Assembly: GCF_024502345.1 (NCBI RefSeq)
Contig: NZ_JALDNN010000001.1
Length of the DNA stretch: 64,000 nt
DNA from: Escherichia coli
GTDB lineage: Bacteria > Pseudomonadota > Gammaproteobacteria > Enterobacterales > Enterobacteriaceae
Reading direction: 5' to 3' (one strand)
Position numbers: made by a program. Shown here piece after piece: positions 50,201-53,200 of the stretch (positions are counted from its first letter, which is position 1; the number at the start of each line of letters is the position of its first letter).

Positions 50201-53200
50201 GTCTATCAATCTGCATTCTCACCGAACTTACTCGAACGCCCGCGTCTGGAAAGCCATCTACAAAAACTCCTGACCGATGCCGTGAAAATGCGTGGGCTGA
50301 TTGCGCCCGCCAGCAAAGAAACCCGTATTCCAAAATCGATATATGAAGGTATCCAGACCATTAATCGCAATCTGGTTTGTATGCTGGAGTTGCAAATCAA
50401 TGCATACTGGGCCACGCGCCCCAGCCATTTCGTGTTATTGAACGCGCAAAAACTTCGTGATACCCAGCATATGATGCAGCAAATACTGCTGAGCCTTGTT
50501 CATGCGCTGTACGAAGGTAATCCGCAGCCGGTTTTTGCCAATACGGAAAAATTGAACGATGCTGTGGAAGAGCTGCGTCAGTTGCTGAATAACCACCATG
50601 ACCTGAAGGTTGTGGAAACACCAATCTATGGTTATGTGTGGCTGAACATGGAAACGGCACATCAGCTTGAGTTGCTATCGAATCTGATTTGCCGGGCCTT
50701 GCGCAAATAATTCCTGAACTTCAGAATCATCTTGCTGCTGCTTCGATTCAGCAAGGATAAAGGGTATGATAGTGAAAAGGGATAAAAGCATTGTCATCTG
50801 CGGCAGCTATGAGTAATGTTGGCCCTAACGAATAGCGGTTGCTTAAACGAATCCGACTCTCACATTATCAGGGGTATAAAAATGGAAACTACCAAGCCTT
50901 CATTCCAGGACGTACTGGAATTTGTTCGTCTGTTCCGTCGTAAGAACAAACTGCAACGTGAAATTCAGGACGTTGAGAAAAAGATCCGTGACAACCAGAA
51001 GCGCGTCCTGTTGCTGGACAACCTGAGCGATTACATCAAGCCAGGGATGAGCGTTGAAGCAATCCAGGGCATCATCGCCAGCATGAAAGGTGACTATGAA
51101 GATCGCGTTGACGATTACATCATCAAAAATGCCGAGCTCTCCAAAGAACGCCGCGATATCTCCAAAAAGCTGAAAGCTATGGGCGAAATGAAAAACGGCG
51201 AAGCGAAGTAATTCCCGTTTTATTCAATGAGGGTTGCCCGGCAACCCTCATTGCTCATTGATTCTTATTTGTGTATCACCGTCATCATTCTCATCTGAGA
51301 ACCAATCGAAATTAACAACAGCCTTCTTCTGTATGCAGCAAGGCAAAAAGTTCTGTAACTCCATTGTTATTAACTGCACTGGTTACTAACACGTTGTGCG
51401 CTCCAGCTTCCCGTAACCAACTTTTCACCAAAGATATTTGTTCCATGCTGGCTAAATCTGCTTTGGTTACTACTCCAATGACCGGGTGATTCATGGCCCG
51501 GTAGGGCGTTTTTACCTCTAATTCCTGCTTCAGCGCTGAGATTCCTGCTTGTTGCCGGAAAAGCAGGCACCTGCCGTCTGAACGGTATCGATCCGGAAGC
51601 GTATCTGCGCCATATTCTGAGCATACTGCCGGAATGGCCCTCCAACCGTGTTGACGAACTCCTGCCATGGAACGTAGTTCTCACCAATAAATAAGCGTCA
51701 ATACGGTGCTCCGTTGACGCTTACTTTAATCCGTTTTCTGAGCTTAGATTTTTCTGTTCCTACCCAGACCGTGGATTTGGAATTCATTTTTTGTCAGGTC
51801 AATGCTAATCGTTAAAACGGCCATAACGCACCTCCACTGGAAGGTTTATCAGTAATATCCTACCGTTGCTTCATGGTCGGGGCGTCCATTCCATTATTAT
51901 CGGTTTTCCTTTCTGTTTATAAATGAAAACGCCAGCTGTATTCAGGCTGGCGTCAGGGGAAATGAAGCCTGTTGAGTGAGATTCACCGGTTCTGGTGCAG
52001 AAGCTGCAGATGGCGCAGGGTAAGGACATCTTCTCTTGCCTGCTTAATACAGGACAACAGTGCTGTTTCTGTGGTTAATGGCACTATACCCTGCATCACT
52101 GCATTGTCTTACAGCAACTGGTGAGGGCTGGCATAAGTTGCCGGTGTTTCGGTAGAGTCACGGTCATCCACCACGCGGAGTGAATAACCGTTTTCAGCGG
52201 CCTTATTAATCAGTTCAGTGATATTAACACCATCAATGTCAACGACAATGTGCCCCATATCCAGCGCCTGTACGTTAACGCTGTCGGCTTCCAGTGTCAT
52301 CATTTCGCCTCCGGATACTTACCCAGGGTAATGTTATTTACCGTTCTGTAATTGTCGCGGGTCATCAGGCCGGTCGCCCTGCGAGCCCGGAGGATACCCG
52401 CTTACGCGAGAGCAATAAGTGGCTGGCCACCATTCTCGATACAAAACTCTGCTGAATAGCAGCGATTTTCCCAGCGTGGTGCGTCTTTTGCATTTTACTG
52501 GTTCTGAGTTATCAATTATCTGTTCACTAATGACTACTCTAAAAAGTTGTATCAATTTAAGTGATATAGGGAGTCTGGAGATTCACCCTTTTTGGTGATG
52601 AAGTTAACAATACCGCCAATTGCCTGTGAACCGTACAGTACGGAATATGGACCTTTCACTACCTCAACACGCTCCAGCGCAGACTCATCTATCAACAGTC
52701 CCACACCATAATTATCTCCGGCGCGCTGATAAGTTACCTCCTGACCATCAATGAGAATTAAAACACGGGAGGATGCTTCGCCACGAATGCGGATTTGTTT
52801 ACGGCCTGCCAAGGAGTTGTCTGTTATCTCTACTCCGGGGATGTCCTGCAAATTATCGGCTATGGAGGCATTGGTGGAGTTCTGCAATGTTTGTTGGTCA
52901 ATAACCTGTATAGTCGCCGGGCTTTCCCAAAGGTTGCTTGCCGAACGATTCGTGGTCACGACGAGCGTCTCTTCGTTGCTGATTTTTGTTTCTGAAGAAG
53001 TTGCGGTTGCAGTAGAAACTATCCCAGAAATGCATAATGACAGAGTGGAAAGGATATAAATTCGACAAGGTATATTATATAACATTTCATCCCTCATTAA
53101 TACAAAGTACAAATGATTGCTGTAATGATAATTATTTTCATTTATGTTCTCATATATCTATAATTATTGTCATCTTCATAAATTGTAAATATCAAACATT

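What the first reader, a model, noticed from the sequence alone, without database searches (positions are those of the whole stretch)
51506..51694. IS66-family transposase tail with no element around it
The plus-strand frame ends with LNGIDPEAYLRHILSILPEWPSNRVDELLPWNVVLTNK, which matches the conserved C-terminus of IS66-family TnpC, yet there is no upstream transposase body, no tnpA/tnpB and no inverted repeats. It marks an old insertion later deleted, and it overlaps the upstream part of the GTPase-fragment ORF on the other strand, which suggests the IS disrupted that gene. A short direct repeat ATTCCTGCTT occurs twice just upstream (51521-51530 and 51541-51550).
Basis: partly seen in the sequence, partly recalled or inferred. 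Interest (0 to 1): 0.4.

Follow-up and report, generated by a model that had tools for sequence, protein, structure and literature searches.

The report
Dead IS66 tail: E. coli yoeD
This is the last 159 bases of a dead IS66-family insertion sequence, already annotated in E. coli K-12 as pseudogene yoeD, lying in a pile of decayed mobile DNA; it is an ordinary genomic fossil.

Summary
The window is E. coli chromosome (sbmC-yeeA-tmaR/yeeX, then the CP4-44-type island remnant).

Bases 51566-51724 are the terminal 159 bp (nt 2374-2532 of 2532) of an ISEc23/IS682-like IS66-family element. They hold the last 42 codons plus stop of tnpC (51566-51694), which is exactly K-12 pseudogene yoeD (b4642), and the intact right terminal inverted repeat ending ...CGCTTAC at 51724.

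There is no tnpA, tnpB, DDE domain or left repeat anywhere in the window.

The tail did not break the GTPase gene:
- pduV homology stops at 51494.
- 51495-51565 is a 71-nt internal piece of an island gene (DUF4942).
- Right of the tail (51725-51895) lies the 5' end of a degenerate IS110-family element.
- 562 complete E. coli genomes carry an allele without the IS66 tail. In its place they have 1311 bp (the rest of the IS110 pseudogene plus the DUF4942 start), with the same pduV truncation.

Inferred history: the IS66 element inserted at TTTAATCC inside the IS110 relic, then one deletion removed about 2.37 kb of the IS and 1311 bp of neighbouring DNA.

The window-type allele is in 3186 of 5426 complete genomes. 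It is already known, non-functional and of low interest.

The parts
51566..51694 (+). 3' fragment of IS66-family tnpC: last 42 codons plus stop (TnpC residues 496-537 of 537). Equals K-12 pseudogene yoeD (b4642).
   Evidence: Pfam PF13817 E=1.6e-15. 96.2% DNA identity to ISEc23 nt 2374-2502. K-12 annotation yoeD, 129 bp. PGAP calls it 'transposase domain-containing protein, missing N-terminus'.
51695..51724 (+). Non-coding right end of the IS, with the right terminal inverted repeat (about 51701-51724, ending GTTGACGCTTAC).
   Evidence: Identical to the right ends of three full-length copies, each flanked by a perfect 8-bp duplication. The reverse complement GTAAGCGTCAACGGAGCACCGTAT matches the left repeat GTAAGCGTAAACTGACCGCCGTAT at 19 of 24 positions.
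51725..51732 (.). TTTAATCC, the surviving copy of the presumed 8-bp insertion target.
   Evidence: It directly abuts the IS end. The allele without the IS tail has a single TTTAATCC at this exact point. The second copy cannot be checked because the left end is deleted.
51725..51895 (-). 5' 171 bp of a degenerate IS110-family element, the host of the IS66 insertion.
   Evidence: In Ec40743, EC01440 and strain 116333 the PGAP IS110-family transposase pseudogene (frameshifted, internal stop) runs across this point. Its C-terminal ORF matches Pfam Transposase_20 at 8.7e-11. Element limits come from comparison with the E24377A island.
51495..51565 (-). 71-nt internal fragment (nt 113-183, codons ~38-61) of island gene DUF4942. 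This is the far side of the deletion that truncated the IS.
   Evidence: 75-77% identity to the 5' ends of intact DUF4942 genes in other CP4-type islands (H179-H182). Contiguous with the DUF4942 start in L006. The intact DUF4942 gene was checked against Pfam.
51312..51494 (-). pduV 3' fragment: codons 88-147 plus stop. The P-loop half is missing.
   Evidence: Pfam PduV-EutP profile positions 86-142 of 143, E=5.9e-13. Collinear with intact pduV next to tmaR in strain TUM1887 only up to 51494. The intact 147-aa PduV covers profile positions 1-142.
51312..51668 (-). Mechanical 118-codon ORF (K-12 yoeF, b4538). It is a three-part chimera: 34 codons antisense to the IS66 tail, 24 codons of DUF4942, and 60 codons of PduV.
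   Evidence: ORF list, K-12 annotation, composition computed.
50816..51211 (+). tmaR (yeeX), the conserved chromosomal neighbour that anchors the locus.
   Evidence: Annotation of collinear E. coli genomes.

Best explanation
51566-51724 is an inert relic: the last 159 bp of a 2.53-kb ISEc23/IS682-like IS66-family insertion sequence. It holds the 42 C-terminal codons of TnpC plus the intact right terminal repeat.

Reconstructed history (the anatomy and the allele without the IS66 tail are shown; that it is the pre-insertion state, and the order of events, are inferred):
1. A CP4-44-type island carrying ...yeeW-DUF957-DUF4942 lay upstream of the pdu operon. A deletion fused DUF4942 codon 61 to pduV codon 88 at 51494/51495.
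2. An IS110-family element of about 1.37 kb sat immediately upstream of the DUF4942 start codon and decayed.
3. The IS66-family element transposed into that IS110 relic at TTTAATCC, 171 bp from its 5' end.
4. A single illegitimate deletion with no microhomology removed IS nt 1-2373 (left repeat, tnpA, tnpB, 92% of tnpC), the left target copy, 1199 bp of the IS110 relic and the first 112 nt of DUF4942. This created the junction at 51565/51566.

The remnant has no DDE domain and only one end, so it cannot transpose. Its only present-day effects are passive. It supplies 159 bp of homology to other IS66 copies, and its antisense strand provides the first 34 codons of the annotated ORF yoeF.
For: Identity and limits of the tail:
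-. All comparisons with IS copies start at 51566 and end at 51724.
- The full copies are 2532-2533 bp, begin GTAAGCG and end CGCTTAC. They carry tnpA-tnpB-tnpC and perfect 8-bp duplications (TGTTTTCA, TCTTTCTC, GCAGATGG).
- TnpC has the domains LZ, zf-IS66, DDE_Tnp_IS66 and IS66_C.

Allele without the IS66 tail (taken as pre-insertion):
- In L006, window 51001-51565 and 51725-52396 are collinear with L006 4562-5126 and 6438-7121. Between them lie 1311 bp holding an IS110-family pseudogene and the DUF4942 start, with a single TTTAATCC at the site.
- 562 genomes carry this allele.

Separate pduV event:
- Intact pduV-pduU-pduT next to tmaR in 644 genomes.
- pduV homology ends at 51494 both in window-type and in L006-type alleles.

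Other points:
- No microhomology at the deletion junction.
- No other IS66 sequence in the window.
- Already annotated as yoeD/yoeF within CP4-44.
- The same structure is in 3186 of 5426 complete genomes, mostly at 99% identity or more.
- No Rfam match in 51100-52200.
Against: - The intermediate (a full-length IS at TTTAATCC with both target copies) was not found in any of 5426 complete genomes. The only two full-coverage hits were an independent insertion 281 bp away. The single-deletion step therefore remains inferred and could have been several steps.
- The right flank differs by about 5% between the window and L006. The two alleles are therefore not immediate ancestor and descendant, and recombination has shuffled the island.
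- The target duplication cannot be verified with only one IS end present.
- ISfinder itself could not be queried. The names ISEc23 and IS682 come from PGAP annotation of the matched copies.
Confidence: 0.9

Rival explanations
1. One reading: the IS66-family element inserted into the pduV/eutP-like GTPase gene and destroyed it. The tail marks that insertion.
For: The tail lies only 71 bp from the end of pduV homology and overlaps the long minus-strand ORF that contains the PduV C-terminus.
Against: - The intervening 71 bp are DUF4942 coding sequence, not pduV.
- The side of the tail facing pduV is its broken interior, not an IS end.
- 562 genomes without any IS66 tail have the same pduV breakpoint at 51494/51495.
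- The intact IS end abuts IS110-family DNA.
Confidence: 0.03
2. The truncation took several steps rather than one deletion. For example, another mobile element inserted into the IS66 copy and later caused an adjacent deletion, or successive small deletions occurred. The insertion history is otherwise the same.
For: - No intermediate was found.
- No microhomology at the junction.
- The locus accumulates ISs: IS110, ISEc22, a second IS66, IS30, IS1, ISEc12 and IS2 in various strains.
Against: No trace of a further element at 51565/51566. One deletion is the most economical account of the two alleles.
Confidence: 0.06
3. The tail was never a full insertion here. An already truncated IS66 fragment was brought in by recombination or gene conversion from another island copy, or by abortive one-ended transposition.
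For: Island flanks show mosaic divergence between alleles: 95-99.7% in 51725-52396. CP4-type islands occur in several copies per genome.
Against: - The IS end sits on an exact, otherwise undisturbed site (single TTTAATCC in the allele without the IS66 tail), as expected from transposition in situ.
- The segment 51725-51895 occurs essentially once per genome (median 1 place; other islands match only 51896-52065).
Confidence: 0.01

Closest known systems
yoeD (b4642) pseudogene of E. coli K-12 MG1655, inside the annotated cryptic prophage CP4-44
   Same: Same locus, same 129-bp extent (window 51566-51694), same neighbours (yoeF, tmaR/yeeX, yeeW). 99.5% identity over 51001-52396.
   Different: Nothing essential. 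The window strain differs from K-12 elsewhere in the island: it lacks the yeeP-flu-cbtA' segment and has no IS2 in yoeA.
ISEc23 and IS682 (IS66 family, 2532-2533 bp, tnpA-tnpB-tnpC), as named by PGAP on full-length E. coli copies
   Same: The last 159 bp are 96.2% and 95.6% identical. The right terminal repeat is identical, and the C-terminal 42 residues of TnpC are identical except one Ile/Val.
   Different: The window has only 6% of the element: no left repeat, tnpA, tnpB, zinc finger or DDE domain. Five of the six differences from ISEc23 are shared with a plasmid-borne variant that is 99.4% identical (L003), so the parent was a close variant rather than the ISEc23 reference itself.
Allele without the IS66 tail at the same locus (for example E. 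coli Ec40743, AR_0162, EC01440; 562 complete genomes)
   Same: Identical flanks up to 51565 and from 51725. Same pduV breakpoint and same DUF4942::pduV fusion.
   Different: It carries 1311 bp (IS110-family pseudogene plus DUF4942 codons 1-37) where the window has the 159-bp IS66 tail.
pdu-positive E. coli (for example TUM1887; 644 complete genomes) and the Salmonella-type pdu operon end
   Same: tmaR is followed by convergent pduV. The window's 51312-51494 is collinear with the pduV 3' end at 96% identity.
   Different: There pduV is whole (147 aa, full PduV-EutP profile) and preceded by pduU, pduT and further pdu genes. No island or IS sequences are present.

Membership tests
IS66 family insertion sequence (as a derivative of one) | TnpC C-terminal domain (Pfam PF13817) and nucleotide identity to bona fide members | tested here: met
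   PF13817 E=1.6e-15, above the gathering score. 96.2% to ISEc23, 95.6% to IS682 and 99.4% to a plasmid copy over 159 bp.
IS66 family insertion sequence (as a derivative of one) | Terminal inverted repeat of the GTAAGCG... type at the element end | tested here: met
   The right end ...GTTGACGCTTAC at 51713-51724 is identical to three full copies. The left repeat is absent from the window.
IS66 family insertion sequence (as a complete, potentially active element) | DDE catalytic domain of TnpC (PF03050), with the zinc-finger and leucine-zipper regions | tested here: not met
   A full copy has these at TnpC residues 60-486. The window retains only residues 496-537. tblastn of TnpC against the whole window finds only the tail.
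IS66 family insertion sequence (as a complete, potentially active element) | Accessory genes tnpA and tnpB upstream of tnpC | tested here: not met
   No tblastn or blastn match to ISEc23 tnpA or tnpB anywhere in the 64-kb window.
IS66 family insertion sequence (as a complete, potentially active element) | Two inverted ends flanked by an 8-bp target duplication | tested here: not met
   Only one end is present and only one TTTAATCC copy is visible. The three full copies examined do show perfect 8-bp duplications.
EutP/PduV small GTPase (the neighbouring fragment) | Complete PduV-EutP domain including the N-terminal P-loop | tested here: not met
   Only profile positions 86-142 of 143 are present. 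Intact E. coli PduV covers 1-142.
IS110 family element (host of the insertion) | Transposase with the IS110-type N-terminal domain and the Transposase_20 C-terminal domain | tested here: inconclusive
   In the sister allele the C-terminal ORF matches PF02371 at 8.7e-11, and PGAP calls a frameshifted IS110-family pseudogene. The window keeps only the first 171 bp, too short to score. The N-terminal domain was not scored separately.

The most novel reading that the evidence does not exclude
The 118-codon ORF yoeF (51312-51668, minus strand) is stitched from antisense IS66 tail (34 codons), a DUF4942 piece (24 codons) and the PduV C-terminal 60 residues. It could be a genuinely translated chimeric mini-protein, born from mobile-element debris and kept in 59% of E. 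coli, with the IS tail donating its start codon and 5' region.
Probability: 0.04. Interest if true: 0.3.

Novelty: already known. Interest (0 to 1): 0.07.

Why it matters
It matters little biologically. The feature is a non-functional IS fossil, already annotated as yoeD in K-12 and flagged by PGAP as a truncated transposase in thousands of genomes.

The modest value here is a corrected, base-exact anatomy of the yoeD/yoeF junction, which is a four-layer nest: pduV' | DUF4942' | IS66 tail | IS110 relic.
- It shows that yoeF is a chimeric artefact ORF rather than a GTPase gene.
- It gives clean allele markers for tracing the history of the cob/pdu-CP4-44 region in E. coli: IS66-tail type 3186, type without the IS66 tail 562, and pdu-intact 644 of 5426 genomes.

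Tried and rejected
- Searched all complete E. coli genomes for the predicted intermediate junction (IS110 relic...TTTAATCC | GTAAGCG, the IS left end). None was found. The two full-coverage hits were two separate pieces caused by an unrelated IS66-family insertion 281 bp away.
- Looked for microhomology at the 51565/51566 deletion junction. There is none.
- Tested whether the frame upstream of 51566 could be a frameshifted continuation of tnpC. The apparent tblastn extension to 51539 is not backed by DNA homology, and that DNA belongs to DUF4942.
- Considered the ATTCCTGCTT repeat as a target duplication or recombination signal. Rejected: it sits inside the DUF4942 coding remnant, is imperfect in the sister allele, and is 16 bp from the junction rather than at it.
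- An Rfam scan of 51100-52200 at E<=1 found nothing.
- The promoter/terminator scan found nothing beyond chance: 2 promoter-like sites against 1.2 expected.
- Literature searches for yoeD and yoeF gave only list mentions, such as the y-ome list in PMC11551758 and gene tables in PMC5359238, and no functional study.
- Searches for a citable CC-licensed description of IS66-family ends were unproductive. The family features were therefore taken empirically from three full-length copies.

Full report
**What the window is.** The surrounding genes identify the E. coli chromosome: sbmC (48981-49454), yeeA, and tmaR/yeeX (50816-51211), followed by remnants of a CP4-44-type island. The 751 bp around the finding occur at 99% identity or more, covering at least 80% of the query, in 3186 of 5426 complete E. 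coli genomes. In K-12 MG1655 the same DNA is annotated as pseudogene yoeD (b4642, 129 bp) overlapped by the ORF yoeF (b4538). Both lie at the edge of 'cryptic prophage CP4-44'. PGAP annotates the stretch as 'transposase domain-containing protein; incomplete; missing N-terminus' next to a 60-aa 'EutP/PduV family' CDS.

**Checking the observation.**
- The + frame ends ...GTCRLNGIDPEAYLRHILSILPEWPSNRVDELLPWNVVLTNK* at 51694.
- It matches Pfam DDE_Tnp_IS66_C (PF13817) at E=1.6e-15, above the gathering score.
- Every comparison with IS66-family copies in E. coli starts at 51566 and ends at 51724. Identity is 96.2% to a full ISEc23 copy (L004), 95.6% to IS682 (L005), and 99.4% to a plasmid-borne, internally deleted copy (L003).
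- The IS-derived DNA is therefore 159 bp, 51566-51724.
- The same frame has a stop at 51479-51481.

**What intact copies look like**.
- They are 2532-2533 bp long and begin GTAAGCG... and end ...CGCTTAC.
- The imperfect terminal repeats match at 19 of the first 24 positions.
- They carry tnpA (HTH), tnpB (TnpB_IS66) and a 537-aa tnpC with LZ, zf-IS66, DDE_Tnp_IS66 and IS66_C domains.
- Each of the three is flanked by a perfect 8-bp duplication: TGTTTTCA, TCTTTCTC and GCAGATGG.

Against this template the window retains nt 2374-2532. That is TnpC residues 496-537 plus stop (51566-51694) and the complete right end with its repeat, ending at 51724. The statement 'no inverted repeats' is therefore wrong for the right end. 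No other IS66 DNA, TnpA, TnpB or TnpC coding capacity exists in the 64-kb window.

**What lies on each side.**

*Left of the tail.*
- Homology to intact pduV stops at 51494. In strain TUM1887, pduV is 147 aa, sits next to tmaR and is preceded by pduU, pduT and further pdu genes.
- The window keeps only pduV codons 88-147, which are Pfam PduV-EutP profile positions 86-142. The P-loop half is gone.
- The 71 bp 51495-51565 are 75-77% identical to the 5' region of DUF4942 genes. These follow DUF957 and yeeW in other CP4-type islands (H179-H182). The piece corresponds to codons ~38-61, in frame with the pduV tail.

*Right of the tail.*
- 51725-51895 is the first 171 bp of a degenerate IS110-family element on the minus strand.
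- Island homology (DUF957, yeeW) resumes at 51896.

**The allele without the IS66 tail.** In Ec40743 (L006) and 561 other complete genomes, window 51001-51565 and 51725-52396 are collinear with the locus. Between them lie 1311 bp instead of the 159-bp tail.
- Those 1311 bp are the remaining 1199 bp of the IS110-family pseudogene plus the first 112 nt of DUF4942.
- The pseudogene is frameshifted with an internal stop, and its C-terminal ORF matches Pfam Transposase_20 at 8.7e-11.
- The site reads ...GGGAACG TTTAATCC GTTTTCTGAG with a single TTTAATCC. In the window TTTAATCC (51725-51732) directly follows the IS end.
- The IS110-type element is about 1.37 kb. It sits immediately upstream of the DUF4942 start codon, bounded by a repeated AT dinucleotide.

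**Inferred history.** Each junction and the allele without the IS66 tail are shown directly; that it is the pre-insertion state, and the order of events, are inferred.
1. The island's DUF4942 was fused to pduV at 51494/51495 by a deletion, which removed the rest of the island end and the pdu operon upstream of pduV codon 88.
2. The IS110-family element lay upstream of DUF4942 and decayed.
3. An ISEc23-like IS66-family element inserted into it at TTTAATCC.
4. A deletion removed IS nt 1-2373, the left target copy and 1311 bp of adjacent DNA.

There is no microhomology at 51565/51566. The full-length intermediate was not found among 5426 complete genomes, so step 4 may have been one step or several.

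**The pduV truncation is independent of the IS66 element.** The breakpoint is identical in alleles that never kept an IS66 tail. Other strains show other states: pdu intact in 644 genomes, and a longer pduV remnant in about 200.

**The direct repeat.** ATTCCTGCTT is real at 51521-51530 and 51541-51550. It lies in the DUF4942 remnant, which there encodes ...SRNLSAEAGI... in an alternative frame. Its first copy reads ATTCCTGCCT in the sister allele, and it is not at any element boundary. The window contains 10 such close exact 10-mer pairs against 2.3 expected under a first-order Markov model. Such pairs are therefore commoner here than chance predicts, but this one has no structural role.

**Function.**
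- With no DDE domain, no TnpA or TnpB, and one end only, the remnant cannot transpose.
- No Rfam family matches 51100-52200, and promoter and terminator scans are at background.
It has 34 codons antisense to the IS tail, 24 DUF4942 codons and 60 PduV codons.
- yoeF is listed among uncharacterised y-ome genes (PMC11551758). No functional study was found.

**Verdict.** This is a real, correctly recognised IS66-family tail that is already annotated as yoeD. Its limits are 51566-51724, and it retains its right inverted repeat. It is nested in an IS110 relic and joined by deletion to a DUF4942 fragment. It is not responsible for the pduV truncation. The finding is ordinary genomic decay, of low interest and no novelty beyond a tidier anatomy.

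Noticed in passing
window 52395-52396 (junction); K-12 equivalent 2070662-2077846: Relative to K-12 the window lacks 7185 bp: yeeP, isrC, flu/Ag43, yeeR, yeeS, yeeT, cbeA and the 5' part of cbtA. A 2-bp overlap marks the junction. None of 5426 complete E. coli genomes has this junction contiguous; the nearest, strain 2452, has a different, smaller deletion.
   Followed up: partly
window 52552-53112 (-) and 52780-52784: The TonB-dependent receptor plug pseudogene yoeA is not split by IS2 here. K-12's IS2F sits at the equivalent of 52780-52784, where the 5-bp overlap of the two K-12 alignments is the IS2 target duplication.
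   Followed up: partly
L006 4873-5238 (-) (Ec40743; allele in 562 genomes): In the allele lacking the IS66 tail, DUF4942 codons 1-61 are fused in frame to PduV codons 88-147. PGAP annotates the resulting 121-aa chimeric ORF as an intact 'EutP/PduV family' protein.
   Followed up: partly
L011 (strain 23CRST007) 6388-8898; window equivalent 52006-52013: An independent full-length IS66-family insertion (target duplication GCAGATGG) lies 281 bp from the fossil's site. An ISEc22 sits inside the IS110 pseudogene in the same strain. Other strains have IS30, IS1, ISEc12 or IS2 nearby, so the locus collects insertion sequences.
   Followed up: partly
L007 (TUM1887) and L008 (WB61), next to tmaR: E. coli is polymorphic at this locus. 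644 of 5426 genomes keep pduV-pduU-pduT intact directly beside tmaR. About 200 have a different, longer pduV remnant joined to another island variant.
   Followed up: partly
window 51225-51253: A near-perfect palindrome (AATGAGGGTTGCCCGGCAACCCTCATT) lies between the convergent tmaR and the pduV remnant. It looks like a shared hairpin terminator, although the simple terminator scan, which needs a T-run, did not call it.
   Followed up: no
L006 5237-5238 and 6609-6610; window 51896-51897: The degenerate IS110-family element is bounded by a repeated AT dinucleotide and sits exactly at the DUF4942 start codon. This fits the core-dinucleotide insertion typical of that family, a point that rests on general knowledge and was not tested here.
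   Followed up: no
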